Below are positions 1 to 28,690 of a stretch of DNA of 64,000 bases, one piece after another. The position numbers were made by a program, and so were the translations under genes. Source of the stretch: a virus (Duplodnaviria; Heunggongvirae; Uroviricota; Caudoviricetes); the IMG/VR virus record IMGVR_UViG_3300033489_000001, positions 190,023 to 254,022 of that record, one strand, 5' to 3'. The notes under the pieces are model-generated. The model was not told the origin of the DNA. It saw only the letters and a program-made list of their open reading frames with translations, and did no database searches. The first letter of the stretch is position 1. Each line of letters opens with the position of its first letter.

Positions 1-3000
1 TTCAATTACAGAAAGTAAGTCTTCCTCTTTCAAACTAAAAGGCGGCCAGATGGGGTAGTGGAATCATTTCAATTACAGAGGAAGAATTACTCTTCCTCCT
101 TAAATCGTTGCCCTTCGTGATTTTGGTGAAGGATGTGTTTCAATTACAGAGGGATATTTGCTATCCCTCCTTTCACGCAGATGATCGCGTGCAGGGTCGA
201 TGAGGTTTCAATTCCAGAGGGATATTTACTATCCCTCCTTAGAGGATGGCGAGTATTATTATATTTTCGATATACCCTGTTTCAATTACAGGGAGGGATT
301 AATCCCTCCCCTTGTACCAGAGCCAACGGACGATAAGCCAGCAGTATTTCAATTACAGAGAGGAATTAATTCCCTCCCCTTCTTGGAAAGACTACACAAA
401 TATACTGTTTCAATTACAGAGAGGAATTAATTCCCTCTCCTTTGGCCGAACACGTCCGTGCCACCATCGTTATACCTGTTTCAATTACAGAGGGAGAATT
501 ACTCTCCCTCCTTTCAAAGCCGTTCTTTCCGGTGGACACTACTGGGCGCTGTTTCAATTACATTTCAACTACAGAGGAAAAGTAACTCTTCCTCCTCCTT
601 CTTCCGCAGTCCAAGCGGTTGGGGCGTTGCCGTGTAGTTTCAATTACAGAGGAAGAATTACTCCCCTCCTTTTCCACAACTCATAATCACGGGGCCACGA
701 AGCTTTTGTTTCAATTACAGAGGAAGAATTACTCTCCCTCCTCGACTGGGCATCCCGCCCCTGGGTTCAATGGAATTCAGTTTCAATTCCAGAGGAAGGG
801 ATTAACCTTCCTCCTTTAGTTTAGATATGTCAACCTTCCTGGTTTCAATTTCAGAGGAAGAATTACTCTTCCCCCTTGGAGTGCTTCCTAATGGATACCA
901 CTGTATGTACACCGTTTCAATTACAGAGGAAGAATTACTCTCCCTCCTTTTTGGAATTTGTTCCAAGAGGCTGAGCCATACGTCCAGTTTCAATTACAGA
1001 GGAAGAATTACTCTCCCTCTTTCACCTATACCGGCTGAGATAGAGATTTCGTCGCGTATGTTTCAATTACAGAGGAAGAATTACTCTCCCTCTTTTTGCC
1101 CTTAACGTCGCGCTATGTGAAACAAAATTTCAATTCCGGAGGGAGAATTACTCTCCCTCCTTGTGTGGCGTTAGTGGTTGGTGTACAGCAACTACTATCG
1201 TTTATTTCAATTTCAGAGGGGAGGATTTCCCTCCTTACCTTATAGGACAGGTAATAAGATGACCGCCGTACGGTTTCAATTACAGAGGGAAAATTACTTT
1301 CCCTCCTTATTTCAAGTTCAGCCCAGCTAACTACTTTGTTTCAATTCCATTTCAATCTCAGAGGGAGAATTACTCTCCCTCCTTATCTGTACTTACTCAC
1401 GACCGCGTGGTCTGTAGCTCCGTTTCAATTCCAGAGGAAGAGTTGCTCTCCCTCCTTCTTTCGCAGTAGTCCAAATACGCGAGATACTTGGCTGTTTCAA
1501 TTCCGGAGGGAGAGTAATTCTCCCTCCTTCATATCATTGTTGTAGGTCCTCTAGGACAGGGGTTTCAATTGCATTTCAATTCAGGAGGGAGAATTACTCT
1601 CCCTCCTTACGCGGGACTCCATCATTTGGAGTAAGAAGTTACCCGTTTCAATTACAGAGGAAGGGATTAACCTTCCTCTTTTAGTTTCGATATATTAACT
1701 TCCCCTGGTTTCAATTCCAGAGGGATATTTACTATCCCTCCTTGGGTTAGCTACTAATCCTTGTTTCAATTACAGAGGAAGAGTTATTCTTCCTCCTTAT
1801 CCAAAAAACCACGTTTGGAGCCGGAGATTGGTTTCAATTGCAGGGAGGGATTAATTCCCTCCCCTTCTTTGAAGCGCTTGAAACCTCAACATCAACTACG
1901 TTTCAATTACAGGGAGGGATTAGTTCCCTCCCCTTTGGCAAAGGTGCAAATACCCGTGCGTAGCCGGTTTCAATTGCAAGGAGGGATTAGTTCCCTCCCC
2001 TTCCGGTACATCGCCGCAAGCCAAATCGGGAGTCTTACTGTTTCAATTACAGGGAGGGATTAATTCCCTCTCCTTTGTTGTCTAGGGGAGGGGATGTACC
2101 CGTCTGACATCGGTTTTAATTACAGAGGGATACTTGCTATCCCTCCTTTATCGTCTGCAATTGCATTAGAGCCGAGCTGTTTATTTCAATTTCAGAGGGA
2201 TAGTAAATATCCCTCTCTATGTAACGATTTACAACTTGACGGTTTGTGTTTTTCAATTTCAGAGGGATATTTACTACCCCTCCTTCAGGACTACGGCATG
2301 TTCATGATTTCGCCGCGTTTCAATTTCATTTCGATCTCAGAGGGATATTTACTATCCCTGCTTCCCCGGTTAACCTACTCCTGAAGAGGGAATCAGTACG
2401 TTTCAATTACAGAGGGAGAGTTACTCTCCCTCCTTCTCTTATTCTGTTCCGCTCAAGGATAGAAGCCAAAGTTGCGTTTCAATTACAGAGAAGGAATTAC
2501 TCTTCCTCCTTAAATGTTGCTCGGGGAAATGCCGGTTGAACCTTTCCCGGTTTCAATTACAGAGGAAGAATTACTCTCCCTCATTGAGAAGCATGACCGC
2601 TATCCACAGTTTATGGAAGAGCCGTTTCAATTTCAGAGGGAGAATTACTCTCCCTCCTCTGGTTATTTTCGGGAACGAAACCCCTAATCTCGTTTCAATT
2701 ACAGGAGAAGAATTACTCTCCTCCTTGATTCCTTTCCAAATCTCCCGGACTATCGGACTGTTTCAATTGCAGGGAGGGATTAGTTCCCTCCCCTTCTAGA
2801 TTACCATTCGTGTCCCGCGCGAGATGCAGCGGGTTTCAATTACAGGGAGGGGTTAGTTCCCTCCCCTTATCATATTGAGTCATACCCCCGTGGCCATGAC
2901 TAAGTATGTTTCAATTGCAGGGAGGGATTAATTCCCTCTCCTTGAATGCTAAAGTTGTTTGTTGGGCGATCGAACTTCTGTTTCAATTGCAGGGAGGGAT

Positions 3001-3605
3001 TAGTTCCCTCCTCTTTATTTGATCGCGAATATAACAGGGCCGAACTCGAGGGGTTTCAATTACAGAGGAAGAATTACTCTCCCTCTTTTATTGGGGTCGG
3101 CTTTATCGCGGCGAGTAAGCTTTCTGTTTCAATTACATTTCAATTAAGGAGGAAGAATTACTCTCCCTCCTTGCATTCGAGCAAGGACTCGGTGTGCGCC
3201 GTAGTCTGGTTTCAATTACAGAGGAAGAATTACTCTCCCTCCTTGTCTCAAGACCGGCTCGTAGGGAATGTGCGCTAAACGTTTCAATTACAGAGGAAGA
3301 GTAACTCTCCCTCCTTGCCCTATCGGCTATAGAGAGGGAGAAGTGGCCAATGTTTCAATTACAGAGGAAGAGTAACTCTCCCTCCTTGAGATAGCTCTTT
3401 TCTCCCGTGTCGTCGATGAGTCTGTTTCAATTACAGAGGAAGAGTAACTCTCCCTCCTTTTCCTTGGAATGTCCGCATCCCGCCTGAGAAGCAAGATGTT
3501 TCAATTACAGAGGAAGAGTAACTCTCCCTCCTTGTCTTTTCTTTTTGGGCATCCCTTAATTTTAGGTTGGTTTCAATTACAGAGGAAGAGTAACTCTCCC
3601 TCCTT
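1..3605 (-). CRISPR. CRISPR array, about 51 repeats / 50 spacers in window, continuing past the left edge; 36-nt repeat, leader-end form (minus) AAGGAGGGAGAGTTACTCTTCCTCTGTAATTGAAAC
   Basis: Repeats recur about every 70 nt from 1 to 3605 with mostly 31-40 nt unique spacers (a few 19-29 nt). On the minus strand repeats end ATTGAAAC, stem mismatches become G-U wobbles, and the last 5 repeats (3281-3605) are identical. Confidence 0.98.
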
Positions 3606-3805
3606 AGTACATTTTAATTTCGCAAGGAATTCAACGCCTTATACTATCGTTTTAGAGCACTTCTTGTGCTTCCACACCGGAAGACCCTAAAGTATAAAGA
3701 AATAGAATCCTTGATTTAGCAAATCTATTAAATTGTCAAAGAACTTGTTTTCGAGCACCCTCCAGCTTTTAAGGAGGATATGACCGCTCGAAAACCCCTA
3801 GGAAC
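3606..3805 (-). promoter_or_regulatory. Probable CRISPR leader
   Basis: Non-coding, fairly AT-rich stretch next to the homogeneous end of the array and downstream of the cas operon. Confidence 0.6.
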
Positions 3806-4006
3806 TTAGACTCTCTGCCATCGGCTGATACCCTCTTCATCTTTAGGAGGGTTCGCTGGCCGTACCGTACCTTTAATCCTCAAGATGGCTACTGCCGCCG
3901 CCGCTTGTTGCGAGCGTGCCCCGAAGTGGTCAGCGATCTCTTGAGTGGTTTTGATCCTGTTTCCTATGAATGTATATACTTTATCTGAACTCAGTTTCTC
4001 TTTCAT
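3806..4006 (-). CDS. Small winged-HTH DNA-binding protein
   Basis: TTQEIADHFGARSQQAAAAVAILRIKGTV fits a wHTH pattern; last gene before the array. Confidence 0.65.
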   Translation of the reverse strand: MKEKLSSDKVYTFIGNRIKTTQEIADHFGARSQQAAAAVAILRIKGTVRPANPPKDEEGISRWQRV

Positions 4007-4021
4007 TTTTCACCTCACTTT

Positions 4022-4792
4022 CTAACGGAAGCTTTGGACTTCCGTGTCAAACTTCTTTCCAACTCGTATCCGATTTTTGTGCAGTTCCAATCGGATAGTC
4101 GCCATCCGTAAGGGCCGCTTCTCGCTCTTATAAATGTGGTAACCCCCTGCCCAACCTATCCAACCTTGCTCAACAAGTTTTAATTCTTTCAAGTTAGGCC
4201 CTAGGATACGTTCCGGAGTAAGCTTCCAGTTCTTGAATGTCTCGCAGAGTTTTTCAGTGTGCGTCTTGAGGGCTACCTGTGCCTCTATTCTTTTGCCGTC
4301 TAAAGTGTTTCGATCCAAGGTATTGTTTAGGATTAGAACGCAAGTGGCCGCTTGCTCTAGGGTATGTTGTACAATGTCTTGGAGAAGTTCCATTTCAGTG
4401 TTCCACCACTTACCCCCTACGTTATAACTGTCATCAAACCCGTAGATAGCCAGAGGATAGTTAGTCAATCCAATTTCTCTTCTTTCTTCTTTGGATAAAC
4501 TGGCAACGAATCTTGCTTTGATATAACCATCCGCTCTAGCGGCCATCCACGGGACGTTATCTTTCCAATGCTGATATATAATATCTAGCTTTTTATCTAT
4601 CCCAATGAATTGCTTTGGGTTGTGCAGTTTATCGGCCAGAAGAGCGTACATTTCCTTTCCGCTTTCTCCGACTAACTCTAGGTAACTGTATTTGAGCTTA
4701 CCCGCCCCATCCCATAATTCTTCGCAAGTGGAGATAAATCGTAAATTGATCAGCCTCCAGTCGTCTTTTCTATAATCGGTAATGTTTGTCAT
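4022..4792 (-). CDS. Divergent class I SAM-dependent methyltransferase-fold protein
   Basis: YLELVGESG (motif I-like), QFIGID (beta2 acidic motif), AIYGFDDSY (beta4), terminal YHIY..MATIRLEL hairpin; start overlaps the helicase stop (TAATG). Confidence 0.5.
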   Translation of the reverse strand: MTNITDYRKDDWRLINLRFISTCEELWDGAGKLKYSYLELVGESGKEMYALLADKLHNPKQFIGIDKKLDIIYQHWKDNVPWMAARADGYIKARFVASLSKEERREIGLTNYPLAIYGFDDSYNVGGKWWNTEMELLQDIVQHTLEQAATCVLILNNTLDRNTLDGKRIEAQVALKTHTEKLCETFKNWKLTPERILGPNLKELKLVEQGWIGWAGGYHIYKSEKRPLRMATIRLELHKNRIRVGKKFDTEVQSFR

Positions 4793-7107
4793 TACAGGTT
4801 TTCTAACCTAGAGTGGAGTGCAGCGTTCCCTTGTTTTTGGAACAAGGTGTAAACCTCATCGATAACCTTTTTTGGTTTAGTGCCTAATTGATGTGCTTCT
4901 TTAGGGGTCAGGTTACTTAGAAAGTTTTCGTCAGGGCATACTCCTGCTAGGTTAATTGCACCCCAATGATCCACAACAATCGGATATCTCCCAAAATGTG
5001 GAGAGGTACGAATACGGGTTATTTTGTCCGGTCCTTTATCTTGAATCTCGGCACGAAGGATAGGCGGAGATTTCCTTCTGACTACCCAGTCATTATAGAG
5101 GTCATTCACAATAATCGTGTGTTTCACCCAAGGGCTTTGTAGCACGATCCATTCCGATAAATCCCCTCGGAAGCCTTTGTATAAACCTGAGCGTAAATGC
5201 TCATGGTGAGTACGGAAGGATATTTCCGGGTTCACAGGGTCCCAATCCTTTATGGTAGGATACCTCTTTTGTGTGCTAAAGAAGAGGTCAACTCGTTCCT
5301 TAAGCTCTTCTAGAGAACCTAACGGTTGGACTTTGGTTATGATACTCTTAGCTCGAATGCGGACGGATTCAAGGAGCTGGATGTCAATTTTATAAACCTC
5401 CTCCTCTATCTCTGGCACCTCATTTTTGAACTCTTCAAATAAAGCCAGGAGTTGGGCTAAAACAGTTCCGCTCAAATCTTCCTTCAAACTCTGTAAAAGT
5501 TGTAAAAGTTTTTCCTTTGCTTTTTTATGCACGCGAGCAAAGTCTAGGGCTAAAAAAGCGCTAAAAGCTATTTCATCTATTTCAATCTTATGCACCTCAG
5601 CCCATGTTTTAAGGCAATAAAGACGCCCACCGGGACCTAGGCTGGCATACCTTCCCTCGTCCAAGGGAGACTCATGATTTTCTATCCATTTTTGAGCTAA
5701 TTGCTTCAACTCGAATTGAGTTTGGTTTTCTTTGTCCGTACTGACCACATAAAGATTGGAGATTTCAGTACTAATCTCTCTTTTACGTGAAGGAGACATT
5801 CCATCATAAAAATTGCGGAATAGCTTTCCTAGAAATGAAGCACTGTTTAAGGAATCAACAAGCGCCAGCGCTCTGAAAAGGATACCCATATGTTCCTCTC
5901 GACGGGCCGCAGCATCTTCTACACCTCCAACGACGAATATTAAATGGACCTTATTCAGCCACTTTTTTGGGTAACCTTTGAATAGTGCCGTTATGCCATC
6001 TAGCCGAAACTTATTGCGAAGGATTCTTCCTAAGAACTGCTCGAAGAGGACCATCGATTTGGGAATTCCGTATAAAAAAGCCAAACACCTGGAGGGGGAG
6101 TCAACACCTTCCACAATTCGAGAAATCCCTATAAAAATTGTTTGAAACATTGAGTACCGAGCGATACCCAGTTTGATGTGTTCAGCCTCTCTTTCCAGTG
6201 CCCTAAAGAACTCAGGAACGTTTTCCTTTTCTCCATAGCACTTTATAACACCGTTACCTATGACTCTTTTAATCTCTGCAATGGTCTCTTTGTTATCGTT
6301 TTCTCCTCTAGGTTTTAAGCGCAAGATGGCGGGCAACCGCTTAAATCGGTTCCATAATTTTTTTATAGTTAGAGCCCCTTCATGAATGTCAATAGGGATC
6401 AAAATGGCATCATCGTTTGAAGTTCCGCCCCCCTTCACATGAACTATTTCGGATGTAATTTCTTGAGGGCACATTCCCGCAAGCATGAGATCAACTAGAG
6501 ATCTGGTACAGACAAAATCCTCTTTTAGAACAACGGGGAGCTTATCTGACCTATAGGGGGTGCCAGTAAGTTTTCCTATGATCACACCCGCCGCCCGAAG
6601 AGTATCTTCGGCGTGACCTAATTTGAGAATATCGGTTCCTACAGGGGAATGTTGAGCTTCATCAACAAGAAGAAGGAACTTTTTTGCGGGATTTCTTTTT
6701 AAGTGATCTATTACATATTCCTGGACTTTTGGCTCAATAAAAAGACTGTGAGTAAGAGCCAAAATTCTGCCTCGTTTACCAAACTTAGTCCGAAACTCCT
6801 TGCCATCTTTTACGGCTTCTACCAGTCCAATTTTGAACTCTCCCCCGGACCATTTGATGATACTATTGGAGTATCTTGAGAAATGATCTCTAACCGCAGT
6901 GGTCGGAGTAATGACCACTGCATAGTTGAATACTCTATCAACAATTAATTTGGCTGCAAGTGCAAGACCCATAATGGTTTTGCCCCCTCCCGTGGCGTAA
7001 TGCAGCACAAATGAACGAAGCTTTTCCCCTACTTCTTTGAGGAGGTCTACAAAGTCTTCATCCTGATAGGCTCGAAGGTGTATACTAAGTTTTTGTAAAA
7101 AAGCCAT
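4792..7107 (-). CDS. SF2 helicase of ResIII/RadD type (not Cas3; no HD domain)
   Basis: LRAYQ (Q motif) at the N-terminus, TGGGKT, VDEAQH, LTGTPYRSD, IVEGVDSP, EQFLGRILR; long C-terminal extension. Confidence 0.9.
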   Translation of the reverse strand: MAFLQKLSIHLRAYQDEDFVDLLKEVGEKLRSFVLHYATGGGKTIMGLALAAKLIVDRVFNYAVVITPTTAVRDHFSRYSNSIIKWSGGEFKIGLVEAVKDGKEFRTKFGKRGRILALTHSLFIEPKVQEYVIDHLKRNPAKKFLLLVDEAQHSPVGTDILKLGHAEDTLRAAGVIIGKLTGTPYRSDKLPVVLKEDFVCTRSLVDLMLAGMCPQEITSEIVHVKGGGTSNDDAILIPIDIHEGALTIKKLWNRFKRLPAILRLKPRGENDNKETIAEIKRVIGNGVIKCYGEKENVPEFFRALEREAEHIKLGIARYSMFQTIFIGISRIVEGVDSPSRCLAFLYGIPKSMVLFEQFLGRILRNKFRLDGITALFKGYPKKWLNKVHLIFVVGGVEDAAARREEHMGILFRALALVDSLNSASFLGKLFRNFYDGMSPSRKREISTEISNLYVVSTDKENQTQFELKQLAQKWIENHESPLDEGRYASLGPGGRLYCLKTWAEVHKIEIDEIAFSAFLALDFARVHKKAKEKLLQLLQSLKEDLSGTVLAQLLALFEEFKNEVPEIEEEVYKIDIQLLESVRIRAKSIITKVQPLGSLEELKERVDLFFSTQKRYPTIKDWDPVNPEISFRTHHEHLRSGLYKGFRGDLSEWIVLQSPWVKHTIIVNDLYNDWVVRRKSPPILRAEIQDKGPDKITRIRTSPHFGRYPIVVDHWGAINLAGVCPDENFLSNLTPKEAHQLGTKPKKVIDEVYTLFQKQGNAALHSRLENL

Positions 7108-7209: not shown

Positions 7210-8145
7210 TTATGGGTCGATCTCTTCGACAGTAATACCGAGCTTGTCGAGCCCAGTTTTATCAACTTCTACCGTGTAATCCGAGAATGCACTAGGCTTA
7301 GGAACATCCGTATGGATGTTTATGCGTCGGTACAACTTCATGGCCTGAGCATTTCCGTACGGAGACTCGTGATGGAACAGGATGATCTTTTCGACGCAAG
7401 CTCCGAAACGGGTCGTGCTCTTGGTTTGGTCGTACATATGCCTGAAGAGTTCGATGAAAAGTTCGTAATCGTCGTAGCTGAAACCCGTTCTCTTTGCACG
7501 GAACGGATCGATGGAAAACTGGGTAACGCTTACCTCAAAAGGTATATAGGACATCTTACCCATTTCCCGGCTTTTTGTTTTTGCATCAGCGATGCTGGTA
7601 ACTACCGGACGTGTAATAGAGGCTTCTTCTGGATTGATAATGTCAACGCTAAGGCTGAACCCCATTTGAATCGGACCTGTAAGATGGTCGTTGATAGGCG
7701 ATGTCAGGACGCCACCAAAAAAACGCATATCAAGATATTTCTTACACAGTACTTGCACTGTTTGTTCGATCTGTTCTGGGGTGAGGGGATTCCCTTTGGC
7801 CTTTTTTCCTTTTTTGGGCTCTTCCTCGTCTACTTCGATATTTTCGATCTTGACCTTATCTAGCTTGACCCCAGCGGTGGCAAGGGCTTCGCGGAAGATC
7901 TGCTCTAGAGGCTGGCCGTTCGGACGGATATAGAGTTCGTGCCCTCTTAGACTTGCTCCATACCGGATCTTGTATTTAGGCCCTTGTGGAGTCATAATTC
8001 CCCTTCCTGTATAGGGATCTATACGGCGAAGGTTACCATCAGGGTTTAGTTGAAGGTTGCCATTTGTGCAACTTACAACCCCCACTCCATCTGTACGTCG
8101 GTCGTAAACCGAAGCTCCTGCTTTGTTACCGTTTGATTTTTTCAT
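7210..8145 (-). CDS. cas7: Cas7 (type I-C, Csd2-like)
   Basis: NGNLQLNPDGNLRRIDPYTG, YLDMRFFGGV, GPIQMGFS, EEASITR, KRTGFS, HESPYGNA match Cas7c motifs. Confidence 0.93.
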   Translation of the reverse strand: MKKSNGNKAGASVYDRRTDGVGVVSCTNGNLQLNPDGNLRRIDPYTGRGIMTPQGPKYKIRYGASLRGHELYIRPNGQPLEQIFREALATAGVKLDKVKIENIEVDEEEPKKGKKAKGNPLTPEQIEQTVQVLCKKYLDMRFFGGVLTSPINDHLTGPIQMGFSLSVDIINPEEASITRPVVTSIADAKTKSREMGKMSYIPFEVSVTQFSIDPFRAKRTGFSYDDYELFIELFRHMYDQTKSTTRFGACVEKIILFHHESPYGNAQAMKLYRRINIHTDVPKPSAFSDYTVEVDKTGLDKLGITVEEIDP

Positions 8146-8257: not shown

Positions 8258-9958
8258 TTACTTCCTCTTCTTTCCCTTTACTTTTTCTTCTGTCTTCTCT
8301 TCTGGTTTCTTTTCCCCTTTATGGTTTTTCTGATAGTATAAAAAAGCTAAGAAATGACCAGAAAGGGTCCACTGATTTGAACATCCTTGCGTAATAAGCG
8401 CCCTTTCTACGTCGGTCAATCTATGCATAAGGTTGGTAATATTTACCCCCGCTCTGCTGTAGTCGGAATCCAACTCTTGGAACATAGCCACCCAATGGTT
8501 CCGATTTTTCTTTTCTAATCTTTCTGCAATGTGGAAAGTACCCTGAGTCATCCTCTGGTAAGCCACTACCGGATTAGCTAAAGCCATGCTTAGGATTGTA
8601 CCGGGACTTATGGAATTGCGTTGATGCGCTTGCTGCTTCATTCGGCAGAAAATGGCGATCATACGCCCTAGTGTGTAGTTGGGATCTTTTTCTCTTACTA
8701 GCTCTTGATTCAAATAAACTTTCGGATCAGGCTCTTTTGAAGGATCGTAATTTCCATGATTTAGCACAACGGGTATTCCTTTCCTGTATTGGTAAGCATT
8801 AAACCATCGTTCTTGCATGTAGTCTGTAACTTGACGCCCCCTTAGTTGAGATACCTCTTGTGGATAAGGTTCATTTGTGAGGATTGACCATAGGGCGTAA
8901 AAAATGATAGAGTTCTGGACCTCTTTTGCAGAGCTTAGCCAGAAGTTCGAAACACTCCAAAAACTCCATTCATTAAACTCCTCCCGGAAGCTTAAAAGAG
9001 AAGAAAGAAGCTTCTGTACAGGAATGTGTTCATACCGCATAACCGCATAACGAATTTTTCTCAGTTTCAGTAATGCGGCGCATATATCCGTGGTATCTTT
9101 TTTCGAGATTTTTTCTAACTCGCTCCAAGCTTGTTCTAACTTTTCTTTCTTATCCCCTCTTAGAATTGTAATGGCCAATGGAATGATGGGATGCTCTTTT
9201 TTCTCATGGGGCCACAAAACCAGCCAAGTGTCCTTTGCCAACATGTAAGAGCTGGCGGGCTCTCGTTGTGGTTTTAGCAAACTGTGCAAAGCAGCCGAAT
9301 AGGCTTCAGCTGCCTCGTTAGAAACGGGGAAATTTTCCCCGTACGAGTAGCCACGATACCAGGTAGCCCTCTCGTTAAAAGAAACCAATTTATCCGATCC
9401 CCCTTGGATACCAAGATGTAGACGGGCTAGCCTTTTTTTCTTCCCCGTTATTAGGCAAGAGCCCAGTTTTCCCTCTTCCGCCTTCAGTTCATCTTGTTCT
9501 TGGAGCCAAGCTTGAACGGCAGCATATTCGGCCAAAGGCTTTGTACCGTTGCAAAGGACGATGGTATCCCCCGGTTCTACTGCATGTGTCTTCTTGGTAG
9601 CATCGCGGAAAAGGTAGCCATCATCGGTTACCTTCTGAATTTCCCAATTAAGCCGTAAACAGTGCTCAACTGCTTTTTTGAGGTTAGGGTTTTTAGCTAC
9701 GATTTCCTTAGTAGTAGCCCAGAAAGCCGCATCCTTATCTAAAGCGTACTTAGCTACCTCATAGCAATGGTTCGGTACGGACGACGCATTAGACCCATGG
9801 CACACGGGTTGAGGTACACATAGCGTAGCTTTCTTCTGTTGTACTAGCTTCCCGGTGTTCAGGTCAAAACACCATACGTTTAAAAAGTTGCGATCATAAA
9901 CGACGGGTTTTTTACCAATTCGATTCCCATAGGCCGTTAAGGAGGAAAGGAGGTCCAT
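8258..9958 (-). CDS. cas8c: Cas8c (Csd1) with C-terminal Cas11-like domain
   Basis: CLITG..RLARLH, KLVSFNE, ENFPVS.EAAEAY..AL..LL; C-terminal YTLGRMIAIF Cas11 motif; abuts cas5. Confidence 0.9.
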   Translation of the reverse strand: MDLLSSLTAYGNRIGKKPVVYDRNFLNVWCFDLNTGKLVQQKKATLCVPQPVCHGSNASSVPNHCYEVAKYALDKDAAFWATTKEIVAKNPNLKKAVEHCLRLNWEIQKVTDDGYLFRDATKKTHAVEPGDTIVLCNGTKPLAEYAAVQAWLQEQDELKAEEGKLGSCLITGKKKRLARLHLGIQGGSDKLVSFNERATWYRGYSYGENFPVSNEAAEAYSAALHSLLKPQREPASSYMLAKDTWLVLWPHEKKEHPIIPLAITILRGDKKEKLEQAWSELEKISKKDTTDICAALLKLRKIRYAVMRYEHIPVQKLLSSLLSFREEFNEWSFWSVSNFWLSSAKEVQNSIIFYALWSILTNEPYPQEVSQLRGRQVTDYMQERWFNAYQYRKGIPVVLNHGNYDPSKEPDPKVYLNQELVREKDPNYTLGRMIAIFCRMKQQAHQRNSISPGTILSMALANPVVAYQRMTQGTFHIAERLEKKNRNHWVAMFQELDSDYSRAGVNITNLMHRLTDVERALITQGCSNQWTLSGHFLAFLYYQKNHKGEKKPEEKTEEKVKGKKRK

Positions 9959-10597
9959 CTAAGCCACCTCCTTAACTTTCATGATCCCCCACTTTTTTAC
10001 TTCTTCCCACGATGGATAGTGAACCACGCCCCTCTTTACTTGGAGAGGAGCAAAGTACTGTGGTTGCCGAGGATCAGTAAAGTCCGTTCCGAAATAAGAA
10101 AGGCCAAGATCTTGGGTTAGATCGATTGCTTTTGGAAGAGGCCCCTCGTGCAGTTCCACTAAGGCCATGCACTCACGGATACCGAAGTAGACTTGTCTCC
10201 TCTGTCTCCCCCGCTTTGCACGTTCGGCAAACATTTTGTCAAACTTTGGGATCGTATCTTCTGGCGGATTCGCGTTAGAAGAAAGTTCCATGTGCCCAAT
10301 AAAGAGATAGTCCACATTTCTCAGGTAAACGTTGGTTCTTTGGGTGTGCTGTTTCTCATGGGTGTACGGCCCCGGCCCGTTAAATTTCAGTTCGTTTTGG
10401 GTTATGATTATGTAGCGAGGTTCCGCTAAAATATGAACCTCTGTGACGAACCAATTGACCGCTAGATGTCCCATGATGCCCCTGAAAAGCCCTACCCCCG
10501 CATCATGCGACCCTATGATTTGCGAATGTCTTTCCGATCGGAAAGCCGGTGGGGTCCACATCGCAAATGGACCACTTGCGCGGATAATCCAGTTCAT
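9959..10597 (-). CDS. cas5: Cas5c (Cas5d), divergent
   Basis: GPFAMWTPPAFRSER, QRTNVYLRNVDY, KMFAERAKRG..VYFGIREC match Cas5c; start reassigned to 10597 because GGAG lies 6 nt upstream. Confidence 0.9.
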   Translation of the reverse strand: MNWIIRASGPFAMWTPPAFRSERHSQIIGSHDAGVGLFRGIMGHLAVNWFVTEVHILAEPRYIIITQNELKFNGPGPYTHEKQHTQRTNVYLRNVDYLFIGHMELSSNANPPEDTIPKFDKMFAERAKRGRQRRQVYFGIRECMALVELHEGPLPKAIDLTQDLGLSYFGTDFTDPRQPQYFAPLQVKRGVVHYPSWEEVKKWGIMKVKEVA

Positions 10598-10759
10598 ATT
10601 CATCTCCATTTGATCTGCGGTTGTATATACAACCAGTTTTTCAAGCGTTCCAACGATAAGATATGGCAACCTTCCTGTAAAGAGAAAATTGAAAGAAAGT
10701 TACAAGTCTATGAAACTACAACTGTTTCATAGACTTGTAACAAGAAGCGCTAATTACCA

Positions 10760-11934: not shown

Positions 11935-11958
11935 AACTTCAACTTAGAAGTTGAAGTT
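11935..11958. promoter_or_regulatory. Perfect palindrome, candidate operator
   Basis: AACTTCAACTT-AG-AAGTTGAAGTT upstream of the cas promoter. Confidence 0.45.
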
Positions 11959-11966
11959 TGATCTCT

Positions 11967-12171
11967 ATATACTGTACAAAAGAAGATTGGTTACTCTTCT
12001 TCCCAATTCATGTGTTAGATTAAAAAGAAAGACCCGAACTTTATTCAAGCCGGGTCTTTCTCCTTCCTATTAAAAGGAAGGTAGCTTCGTATTTCTATAT
12101 CTCAATTCCGCGCTGTAAAGCCTATGCCAATCACTATTTCAATTAACAGGAAAAAAATTTACCTTCTTCCC
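11967..12171 (-). repeat. Isolated degenerate CRISPR repeats and hairpins upstream of the cas operon
   Basis: 12136-12171 ATTTCAATTAACAGGAAAAAAATTTACCTTCTTCCC and 11967-12004 resemble the array repeat; handle-like ATCTCAATTCC at 12099-12109; 11-bp stem at 12026-12061. Confidence 0.6.
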
Positions 12172-12336
12172 AATTGTTTTCTTCTCAGGATCTACCTAAA
12201 AATAAACTTTTGTAAATTATACCCAGAAAGCACTAAGCGCAACTAAAAAATTAGTGTGGCATGACTCCAGAAAGATATTATTCGATTTCAAAGTGGGCGT
12301 CTGGGCATAGTCTAGAGAGAGGTTACACCAATTTTC

Positions 12337-28363: not shown

Positions 28364-28690
28364 AATCAATAGGAGTGGAAATCTTTTTCGGGACACAAAA
28401 GAGTTGAAAGGCTCACCGATTTCAATTATCAGGAAGGCGTGAAACCTTCCCTTGCTTTTCAGGTTTTACCCAAAAGAAGACTACCTCTTAGAACCACATA
28501 CCTTTTCAAGGAGTACCCTTTGGATTTATTGAATGCAAGCTGAGAGTATGCGATTTCACAATCTTCAAATACGAAGCCCAAAAACCAAACAGGAGAAAAC
28601 TGCTAATCAAGAGGGTTGGCACAGGGCAAAACGAAGGTCAATAAATCTCCCTTCCAGATGGGACGATATCTTCTTTAAACTACAGCGAAG

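What the first reader, a model, noticed from the sequence alone, without database searches (positions are those of the whole stretch)
1..3605. CRISPR repeats that covary: several repeat families with compensatory stem changes in one array
In the sequence, at least six repeat types interleave. Minus-strand stems include GAGGGAGA/TCTTCCTC, GAGGGATA/TATCCCTC, GGGAGGGA/TCCCTCCC, GAGGGAAA/TTTCCCTC and GAGGAAGG/CCTTCCTC. Pairs swap A-U for G-C or U-A on both sides, while the 11-nt 3' tail GTAATTGAAAC is nearly fixed. Cas1-Cas2 normally copies the leader-proximal repeat, which gives uniform repeats. Inference: the array is long-lived and selected for RNA structure rather than sequence, or it was assembled by recombination; diverged repeats would also resist spacer loss.
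Basis: partly seen in the sequence, partly recalled or inferred. Interest (0 to 1): 0.75.

Follow-up and report, generated by a model that had tools for sequence, protein, structure and literature searches.

The report
Phage CRISPR array with non-identical repeats
A complete 411-kb soil phage carries a 65-repeat CRISPR array in which most repeats differ in sequence yet all keep the same RNA hairpin and the same 11-base tail. The repeat-cutting enzyme therefore seems to read shape in the stem and letters only in the tail, and the array has probably been kept for a long time without its own spacer-inserting genes.

Summary
Window 1-3605 holds 51 of the 65 repeats of one array, which starts 995 bases before the window. 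The array lies downstream of cas5c-cas8c-cas7 and an SF2 helicase, in a complete 411,618-bp phage that has no Cas1 or Cas2.

On the minus strand every repeat has the type I-C layout: 2 nt, a 9-bp stem with a basal G.U, a loop of about 5 nt, and an 11-nt tail G-N-AATTGAAA-Y. Of the 65 repeats, 56 are distinct, with 36 stem haplotypes. Pairing is kept in 94% of cells against 85% in shuffles. Seven of nine pairs show double-sided changes. The 123 arm substitutions leave 11 unpaired positions, where 51 are expected.

Hairpin stability does not decay along the array. Independent contigs from the source sample reproduce the junctions between repeat types.

My best reading is a long-lived array under selection for the Cas5c substrate shape, which drifts through G.U intermediates. 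DNA-level hairpin events and block rearrangement explain the interleaving; exchange between arrays is possible but no donor array was found.

A related 453-kb phage shows a milder version. Earlier notes of this scan report similar arrays in other huge phages. My paper searches found no description of such covariation within one array.

The parts
1..3605 (-). CRISPR array: 51 of its 65 repeats. The other 14 complete repeats, and the first two bases of the cut one, lie in the 995 bases before the window (L001:3028-4057). The 64 spacers are 19-41 nt long.
   Evidence: covariance model R1 hits all 65 repeats on the minus strand at E <= 2.6e-4
3209..3605 (-). Leader-proximal uniform block. The five repeats at 3281-3605 are identical (window:3570-3605:-). 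The next three (3053, 3126, 3209) differ from them mainly in the loop.
2760..3015 (-). Type C island (4 repeats; stem GGGGAGGGA/UCCCUCCCU). A second C island lies at 1831-2075 and a third at 279-442.
   Evidence: contigs bridge 1832-2579 and 211-737
2113..2363 (-). Type B island (4 repeats; stem GGAGGGAUA/UAUCCCUCU, with a U-A transversion pair). Further B repeats lie at 137-240 and 1708-1743, and before the window.
780..841 (-). 37-nt type E repeat with a short 25-nt spacer (sp26). A diverged paralogous unit lies at 1645-1707.
551..597 (-). Repeat with an 11-nt tandem duplication of the tail. The same duplication occurs at 1338-1384, 1562-1607, 2317-2363 and 3126-3171, and once before the window.
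3606..3805 (-). Leader. It holds a motif GTTCTTTGACAATT (3744-3731) and a CGAGCG...CGCTCG palindrome, both conserved in two related phage loci.
3806..4006 (-). 66-aa small ORF between the cas genes and the leader. Its counterparts in L039 and L041 are 72 aa.
4022..4792 (-). 256-aa protein with no family match.
4792..7107 (-). SF2 helicase (ResIII/DEAD) in the place of Cas3. No HD domain was detected.
7210..8145 (-). Cas7 (Csd2-like).
8258..9958 (-). Cas8c (Csd1-like).
9959..10669 (-). Cas5c-like protein, the presumed pre-crRNA endonuclease. Its likely true start is the ATG at 10609.
12136..12172 (-). Solitary repeat-like unit (hairpin plus GUUAAUUGAAAU) upstream of the cas operon.
28420..28454 (-). 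Solitary repeat-like unit (hairpin plus GAUAAUUGAAAU), ending 24 nt before a 106-aa ORF.

Best explanation
This is the CRISPR array of a type I-C-variant system (Cas5c, Cas8c, Cas7, and an SF2 helicase in place of Cas3) in a huge phage that has no adaptation genes.

The array is read from the minus strand, from a conserved leader. Each repeat folds into a 9-bp hairpin whose 3' base lies exactly 11 nt from the repeat end. The Cas5c-like endonuclease would cut there, leaving the conserved handle G-N-AAUUGAAA-Y on the next guide.

Cas5c and Cascade read the stem as a shape and the handle as a sequence. The stem letters are therefore free to change as long as they pair. The purine arm and pyrimidine arm let A-U, G.U and G-C interconvert one transition at a time.

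The phage cannot itself renew and homogenise the array. Only the 8 or so youngest repeats are uniform, presumably added with a host integrase acting in trans; that step is inferred. The older repeats have drifted under this constraint.

DNA-level hairpin events add to the variety: loop inversions, tail duplications and GGGA slippage. So do copying of neighbouring repeats and block rearrangements, and together these give the interleaved islands of types A, B, C and E.

Shown here: the anatomy, the covariation, the strand, the absence of cas1 and cas2, and reproducibility in independent contigs. Inferred: cleavage by Cas5c, the age of the array, acquisition in trans, and the cause of the interleaving.
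For: - Cas context and orientation. The same gene order, leader motif and a heterogeneous array occur in a 453-kb phage contig, and the same order and leader in a 10-kb contig.
- No Cas1 or Cas2 in a genome that CheckV rates 100% complete and that has direct terminal repeats.
- Covariation: 94.4% paired against 85.1% shuffled, 58 double-sided cells against 19.6, and 7 of 9 pairs changed on both sides. Observed unpaired positions are 11 against 50.7 simulated.
- 36 stem haplotypes; G.U 30 against A.C 15 in pairs 2-9 (p = 0.018). The basal G.U is kept in 44 of 56 distinct rows.
- Tail positions 1 and 3-10 are at least 95% fixed, while loops and stems vary.
- Hairpin energy is -13.1, -13.6 and -13.1 kcal/mol in the three thirds of the array (rho 0.02).
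- Spacer length SD is 1.4 near the leader against 4.6 elsewhere.
- Neighbouring repeats are more alike than distant ones: Hamming 5.7 against 7.7, and 39 runs against 54.9 when permuted.
- Loops GUAAU/AUUAC and GUAAA/UUUAC are exact reverse complements.
- Contigs of 527, 603 and 748 nt from an independent assembly of the source run match at 100% across A/B/C/E junctions. A second study holds two pieces.
Against: - No RNA data exist, so neither transcription nor cleavage is shown.
- Drift after leader-end copying alone cannot place the complex types B and C in three or more separate islands, so an extra process is needed and was not identified.
- Repeats are related by descent, so the shuffle statistics overstate the number of independent events.
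- The G.U to A.C excess is only 2 to 1.
- Published BhaCas5c reads the first three handle bases, whereas here handle position 2 is free.
- The Cas5, Cas8c and Cas7 matches fall below NCBIfam's curated cut-offs.
- Al-Shayeb et al. note altered Cas5 active-site residues in this phage variant (PMC7162821). I did not check them.
Confidence: 0.65

Rival explanations
1. The array is a mosaic. It was spliced together by recombination between arrays of co-infecting phage lineages (or host arrays). Each donor was uniform for its own repeat type, so each island is an imported block. The compensatory changes arose between arrays, as is already known, and not within this one.
For: Types B and C each share several derived characters yet lie in three or more separate islands with unrelated spacers. 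Sub-variants recur between the two 4-repeat C islands. The related phage array also returns to an earlier tail variant deeper in the array.
Against: No array with this handle and stem was found in IMG/VR, in 185,579 species genomes or in JGI metagenome contigs. Repeats within an island differ from each other by 1-3 bases, so in-place drift is needed anyway. Spacer GC content and length do not differ between islands. No spacer is shared with the related phage.
Confidence: 0.2
2. The paired changes are a mutational by-product at the DNA level, not the result of selection on RNA. Template switching within quasi-palindromes copies one arm onto the other, and short gene conversion spreads whole hairpins between repeats, so complementarity is kept automatically.
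For: Exact loop inversions appear in at least three repeats. Most types are perfect Watson-Crick palindromes above the basal pair. The B-type G-C to U-A change has no pairing intermediate. Identical derived repeats lie 1.6 kb apart, for example L001:3515-3550 and window 1127-1162. A (CCCT)n expansion in one repeat shows slippage.
Against: A DNA-level process would erase mismatches symmetrically. Yet the commonest type keeps an internal G.U, almost all repeats keep the basal G.U, and G.U outnumbers A.C by 2 to 1 on the minus strand only. Such a process also does not explain the fixed 11-nt distance or the conserved tail, nor why solitary units elsewhere keep the same plan with unrelated stems.
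Confidence: 0.1
3. The heterogeneity or the interleaving is an artefact of metagenome assembly through a repeat array.
For: Logan k=31 contigs show three alternative joints at identical or near-identical repeats: 102 to 1127, 707 to 3209, and 2977 back to 2758.
Against: Contigs from the source run match 211-737, 1134-1736, 1832-2579 and 2758-2977 with no differences, and they span the junctions between types. A run of another study matches 2821-2971 and 3020-3170. Diverged repeats and unique spacers make collapse unlikely. The joints lie where 30 or more identical bases recur, as expected for a de Bruijn graph.
Confidence: 0.03

Closest known systems
Canonical type I-C CRISPR repeats processed by Cas5c/Cas5d (B. 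halodurans, S. mutans, D. vulgaris; PMC8524198; PDB 7KHA, 8DEX)
   Same: The repeat plan is 2-nt 5' overhang, stem, 5-nt loop and 11-nt 3' tail ending in AUUGAAAC. The Cas5 is homologous to the D. vulgaris pre-crRNA endonuclease (E 5e-16). Conservation is in the tail, not in the loop or stem letters.
   Different: The repeat is 36 nt with a 9-bp purine/pyrimidine stem, against 32 nt with a 7-bp GC-rich stem. 56 of 65 repeats are distinct. Handle position 2 is free. There is no Cas3, Cas1, Cas2 or Cas4.
[quoted passage not shown] 2020, PMC7162821)
   Same: A huge phage with Cas5d-like, Cas8c and Cas7 proteins, a non-Cas3 helicase and no adaptation genes.
   Different: That paper reports compact phage arrays (median six repeats), and in the passages I read it does not describe repeat heterogeneity. 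This array has 65 repeats. I did not test for a second CasPhi system.
Terminal-repeat polymorphism and degenerate trailer repeats of ordinary arrays (reviewed in PMC8047081)
   Same: Older repeats carry substitutions. Polymorphism has been proposed to limit recombination between repeats.
   Different: In ordinary arrays one or a few terminal repeats are affected and dyad symmetry is often lost. Here almost the whole array varies and the hairpin is kept throughout.
Compensatory base changes between CRISPR repeat families of different genomes (Kunin et al. 2007, PMC1896005)
   Same: Stem pairs covary while the repeat ends stay conserved.
   Different: That covariation is between arrays of different organisms. 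Here it is among the repeats of one array, and among solitary units of one genome.
Solitary repeat units and crRNA-like regulators: Racr (PMC10651486), crRNA-like elements (PMC10120712), phage crlRNAs (bioRxiv 10.1101/2024.10.29.618823)
   Same: About 13 hairpin-plus-handle units lie outside the array in this phage, mostly between genes.
   Different: They match the phage's own Cascade repeat rather than a known host repeat. Their role was not tested. They are not part of the array.

Membership tests
CRISPR array | Short direct repeats regularly interspaced by unique spacers of similar length | tested here: met
   65 repeats of 33-39 nt (plus six with an extra 11 nt). The 64 spacers are 19-41 nt, mostly 31-38. 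Only one spacer pair is similar.
CRISPR array | Adjacent cas genes and a leader on the transcribed side | tested here: met
   cas5c, cas8c, cas7 and the helicase lie upstream on the same strand. The leader motif is conserved in L039 and L041.
CRISPR array | Repeats essentially identical within the array | tested here: not met
   56 distinct sequences among 65 repeats and 36 stem haplotypes. The median longest exact match between repeats is 10 nt.
Type I-C CRISPR-Cas | Cas5c, Cas8c (Csd1) and Cas7 (Csd2) effector genes, with no Cas6 | tested here: met
   Pfam PF09704, PF09709 and PF05107. NCBIfam TIGR01876, TIGR01863 and TIGR02589 at E 7e-20 to 2e-41, all below the curated cut-offs. PDB Cas5c match at 5e-16.
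Type I-C CRISPR-Cas | Cas3 with an HD nuclease domain | tested here: not met
   The 771-aa protein matches only ResIII and DEAD. There is no HD or Cas3 family hit. Canonical relatives L042 and L043 have Cas3_HD.
Type I-C CRISPR-Cas | Adaptation module Cas1-Cas2-Cas4 | tested here: not met
   No Cas1 or Cas2 match in the complete 411,618-bp genome, while the control genomes were positive. Cas4 was not searched.
Type I-C CRISPR-Cas | Repeat RNA of 2 nt + stem + pentaloop + 11-nt tail ending in AUUGAAAC | tested here: met
   compared with PMC8524198. The stem is 9 bp instead of 7.
Type I-C CRISPR-Cas | [quoted passage not shown] | not testable with these tools
   No run on record as RNA holds the stretch.
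Huge-phage type I-C variant (Al-Shayeb 2020) | Phage-borne, without Cas1 and Cas2, with a helicase in place of Cas3 | tested here: met
   PMC7162821.
Rfam CRISPR-DR repeat families | Match to a curated CRISPR direct-repeat model | tested here: not met
   No CRISPR-DR family matched at E <= 1 over window 1-4100.

The most novel reading that the evidence does not exclude
In huge phages that lack adaptation genes, the CRISPR array is a vertically inherited, hard-wired guide library. Its repeats are kept non-identical because that protects guides from recombinational loss.

The same hairpin-plus-handle module has been spread through the genome as Cas5-processed, crRNA-like regulatory genes. One guide within the array (sp26) would switch the phage's own cas operon.
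Probability: 0.18. Interest if true: 0.8.

Novelty: new variant of a known kind. Interest (0 to 1): 0.6.

Why it matters
- The array acts as a natural mutational scan of a Cas5c substrate. It suggests which positions the enzyme and Cascade need (stem pairing, basal G.U, tail positions 1 and 3-10) and which they ignore (stem letters, loop, tail position 2).
- It shows what happens to a CRISPR array that is kept for a long time without its own integrase. This bears on how phage-borne, nuclease-less CRISPR systems are used and inherited.
- It is a natural counterpart of the non-repetitive guide arrays that engineers design to avoid recombination (that comparison is from my own knowledge).
- If the same pattern holds across huge phages, as other notes of this scan suggest, it may be a general signature of adaptation-less phage CRISPR systems. 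Standard array finders, which expect identical repeats, may fragment or miss such arrays.

Tried and rejected
- RNA evidence: no listed holder of the stretch is on record as RNA, so expression and processing could not be examined.
- Donor or sister arrays: a pattern for the handle plus the stem start found only single chance hits in IMG/VR. A two-repeat pattern found only unrelated 30-31-nt-repeat arrays of Bacteroidota type in genome and metagenome contigs.
- Close relatives: Cas7 alone found no viral locus. The 453-kb relative is not held as a record, so its Cas1 and Cas2 status could not be checked.
- Spacer targets: nothing meaningful in 50,697 phage records. Three leader-proximal spacers have no exact match in IMG/VR.
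- Self-targets: only 12-14-nt chance matches, apart from sp26.
- Shared guides: no spacer is shared with the related phage loci. L039 has no spacer that matches its own cas5 upstream region.
- Segmental duplication as the main source of the array is rejected. Spacer-to-spacer similarity is no higher than in shuffles, except for the sp26/sp38 pair.
- Different origin of the islands judged by spacer composition: no difference in GC content or length.
- Rfam: no CRISPR-DR family match; only sub-threshold miRNA-like chance hits.
- Other arrays in the genome: a periodicity scan found only the main array, the mini-array near 334.9 kb, the terminal repeats and non-CRISPR repeat regions.
- A sigma-70 consensus scan did not call the leader promoter.
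Full report
**What is there**

Window 1-3605 is the larger part of one CRISPR array. Reading the sequence and anchoring on the motif TTTCAATT gives 50 full repeats plus one cut by the window start. The window is bases 190,023-254,022 of a single 411,618-bp contig. In that contig the array begins at 189,027, so 14 complete repeats and the start of the cut one lie before the window. That gives 65 repeats and 64 spacers in all. The record is an IMG/VR virus with direct terminal repeats, rated 100% complete.

**Context and strand**

Upstream of the array, on the minus strand, lie these genes:
- a Cas5c-like gene (9959-10669)
- Cas8c (8258-9958)
- Cas7 (7210-8145)
- a 771-aa SF2 helicase with ResIII and DEAD matches but no HD domain (4792-7107)
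- a 256-aa protein with no family match
- a 66-aa ORF, followed by about 200 nt of leader

The Cas5 is homologous to the pre-crRNA endonuclease of D. vulgaris type I-C Cascade (7KHA, 8DEX; E 5e-16). The whole genome gives no Cas1 or Cas2 match, while the control genomes do. This is the kind of system that Al-Shayeb et al. 2020 described in huge phages: a type I-C variant without Cas1 and Cas2, with a helicase instead of Cas3 (PMC7162821).

Only four other proteins are close to this Cas7, at 42-49% identity. Three were traced to their contigs:
- One sits on a 453-kb contig (L039) with the same gene order, a leader and an array.
- One sits on a 10-kb contig (L041) with the same order, which ends in the first repeat.
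- One sits on a 5.7-kb contig (L040) with cas5, cas8c and cas7 but no array.

The leaders of the window, L039 and L041 share GTTCTTTGACAATT and a CGAGCG...CGCTCG palindrome. This fixes the minus strand as the transcribed one in the window. The minus-strand repeat ends in AUUGAAAC, as type I-C repeats do.

**Anatomy of the repeat**

On the minus strand nearly every repeat consists of:
- 2 nt (AA)
- a 9-bp stem that opens with a G.U pair
- a loop of about 5 nt
- an 11-nt tail

This is the published type I-C plan of 2 nt + stem + pentaloop + 11 nt. [quoted passage not shown] Here the stem has 9 pairs instead of 7 and the repeat is 36 nt instead of 32.

Tail positions 1 and 3-10 are at least 95% conserved. 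Position 2 is free (T39, A11, G10, C5) and position 11 is C or U.

**The covariation is real**

- Of the 65 repeats, 56 are distinct, with 36 stem haplotypes.
- On the MAFFT alignment A1, 94.4% of pair cells are standard pairs. Shuffles give 85.1 +/- 0.7 and slid partners 56-73%.
- 58 cells carry changes on both sides, against 19.6 +/- 3.3 in shuffles. Seven of nine pairs show such a change.
- The baseline is high because one arm is nearly all purine and the other nearly all pyrimidine, so only A.C fails to pair.
- As an independent control I placed the observed 123 arm substitutions at random. That leaves 50.7 +/- 5.4 unpaired positions against 11 observed (0 of 5000).
- Because repeats share descent, cells are not independent events. 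By inspection there are at least eight separate double changes:
  - G-C/A-U at pair 6, linked by the G.U form that is the commonest type
  - G-C to U-A at pair 8 (type B)
  - G-C to A-U at pair 8 (a single repeat)
  - three pairs in type C
  - pair 4 in one repeat
  - pair 9 in type E
- Hairpin energy shows no trend along the array: -13.1, -13.6 and -13.1 kcal/mol in thirds, rho 0.02.
- On the minus strand G.U outnumbers A.C by 30 to 15 in pairs 2-9 (p = 0.018). The basal G.U is kept in 44 of 56 distinct rows. A purely DNA-level palindrome would not show this asymmetry.

**It is not an assembly artefact**

Independent k=31 contigs of the source run match 211-737, 1134-1736, 1832-2579 and 2758-2977 without a single difference. 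These pieces span B/C/A, A/E/B and C/B/A junctions. A run from another study holds 2821-2971 and 3020-3170. The three odd joints in those contigs lie at repeats that share 30 or more identical bases, as expected for a de Bruijn graph. The global order of the blocks could not be checked without long reads.

**How the variety is arranged**

From the leader outward the map reads:
- 8 type A repeats, the first five of them identical
- 4 type C
- 5 type A
- 4 type B
- 4 type C
- then A, B and E singles, a long stretch of type A, E again, three C-like repeats, two B repeats, and A with scattered B

Neighbouring repeats are more alike than distant ones (Hamming 5.7 against about 7.7). There are fewer runs than in permutations (39 against 54.9 +/- 2.8), but far more runs than there are types.

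Spacers are all different. The exception is sp26 and sp38, which follow the only two 37-nt E repeats and are about 73% alike. That pair is an old duplicated unit in which the repeats (35 of 37 identical) have stayed closer than the spacers.

Spacer length is tight in the 12 leader-most units (SD 1.4) and ragged in the rest (19-41 nt, SD 4.6; Levene p = 0.005). This fits a young active end and an old decaying body.

Copying of the leader-proximal repeat followed by drift cannot by itself put types B and C in three or more separate islands. Some rearrangement, conversion between repeats, internal insertion or exchange between arrays must have acted as well.

I found no donor arrays, no difference in spacer composition between islands and no spacers shared with the relative. 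The cause of the interleaving therefore stays open.

**DNA-level events**

- Loops GUAAU and AUUAC, and GUAAA and UUUAC, are exact reverse complements. Each needs three specific substitutions, so loop inversion is the simpler reading.
- Six repeats carry an 11-nt tandem duplication of the tail, and two solitary units carry 10- and 12-nt versions.
- One repeat carries a (CCCT)n expansion of its arm.

These events show that hairpin-prone DNA mechanisms contribute. Template switching could create some paired changes in one step. It does not explain the G.U asymmetry, the fixed distance to the tail or the conserved tail.

**The related phage**

The L039 array has about 49 repeats. It is uniform next to the leader (8 repeats), continues with a second type (about 13 repeats) and then becomes increasingly diverse, with irregular spacing. 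Its GC-rich core pairs are conserved. Only the top pair covaries (U.G, U-A, G-C, C-G), and the hairpin degrades toward the trailer. Heterogeneity therefore recurs in this clade, but the window's array is the clearer case.

**Literature and earlier notes**

- Reviews state that repeats are identical throughout an array except at the terminal repeat, and propose that such polymorphism limits recombination (PMC8047081).
- Compensatory changes are known between repeat families of different genomes (PMC1896005).
- My searches found no description of pervasive, structure-preserving heterogeneity within one array.
- Earlier AI notes of this scan report the same kind of array in two other huge phages with type I-E systems (e1-5379081, e1-1907849), and for the part of this array before my window (e1-1859249). 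These are leads, not evidence, but they suggest a general pattern.

**Verdict**

The reading 'selected for structure, long-lived' is supported, and 'assembled by recombination' is neither shown nor excluded. The reduction of recombination substrate is real: only 3.6% of repeat pairs share 25 or more identical bases. I read it as a consequence of drift, not as a selected trait.

I class this as a new variant of a known kind: a CRISPR array of a known phage type I-C variant with an unusual and informative mode of repeat evolution.

Noticed in passing
genome G000:C1 handle ends at 139081+, 140793+, 143376+, 154080-, 164198-, 165299-, 324868+, 325010+, 334996-, 335069-, 343478+; in the window at 12136-12172(-) and 28420-28454(-): About 13 solitary or paired units of 'hairpin + [G/U]NUAAUUGAAA[C/U]' lie outside the array, mostly between genes. 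Their stems are unrelated in sequence but each pairs. Model R1 scores the best ones at 26-29 bits. They could be crRNA-like regulators, Cas5 processing sites in phage transcripts, or decoys. Earlier scan notes (e1-1859253, e1-1859254, e1-5456339) seem to have seen some of them.
   Followed up: partly
window 817-841 (spacer sp26) and window 10659-10677: The guide made from sp26 matches the minus strand just upstream of cas5 over guide positions 1-19. The single mismatch is at position 12, one of the every-sixth positions that Cascade flips out. The site lies between the terminator of the preceding gene and a possible promoter. I estimate about 0.012 such anchored matches genome-wide by chance. 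The bases 5' of the site are TTA, not the canonical TTC. The paralogous spacer sp38 does not match. This may be self-regulation of the cas operon.
   Followed up: partly
window 551-573, 1338-1360, 1562-1584, 2317-2339, 3126-3148; L001:3359-3381; genome 325010-325022 and 343478-343488: The 11-nt handle is tandemly duplicated in six array repeats of different stem types. It is also duplicated, with 12- and 10-nt units, in two solitary units. The event is therefore recurrent. A doubled handle would shift or lengthen the 5' end of the guide and might silence it.
   Followed up: partly
L001:3231-3266, window 1494-1529 and window 2183-2218: In these repeats the loop is the exact reverse complement of the usual loop for that type (AUUAC for GUAAU, UUUAC for GUAAA). 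This points to inversion of the loop by exchange between the arms.
   Followed up: partly
L001:3796-3853 (genome 189795-189852): One repeat has its arm expanded into a (CCCT)6-7 microsatellite on the plus strand, so the GGGA-type arm is prone to slippage.
   Followed up: no
every repeat, e.g. window 3570-3605: The 5' end of each minus-strand repeat is AAGGAGG, a perfect Shine-Dalgarno sequence. The plus strand therefore carries 65 copies of CCUCCUU, the same letters as the 3' end of 16S rRNA. No start codon follows at a usable distance. It is probably a by-product of the purine-rich stem.
   Followed up: no
window 3731-3800; L039:14290-14360; L041:9960-10030: The leaders of three divergent phages share a palindrome CGAGCG...CGCTCG followed by GTTCTTTGACAATT. 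This looks like an operator plus promoter element for the small wHTH-like gene product encoded just upstream.
   Followed up: partly
window 11940-12135 (-): Downstream of the solitary unit at 12136-12172 come a spacer-like stretch of about 54 nt, a second hairpin (CCUUCC...GGAAGG), an intrinsic terminator and a further degenerate hairpin. A TATAAT box lies about 45 nt upstream. This is the layout of a small stand-alone RNA gene.
   Followed up: no
genome 1-500 and 411000-411618: The terminal-repeat regions hold a short motif that recurs every 69 nt. It appeared as periodic chance-length matches and in the periodicity scan.
   Followed up: no
window 1-3605, plus strand: On the plus strand 17 terminator-like hairpins were called, against about 5 expected. 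Most of them are repeat hairpins followed by CUU and a U-rich spacer. Antisense transcription through the array would therefore tend to stop.
   Followed up: no
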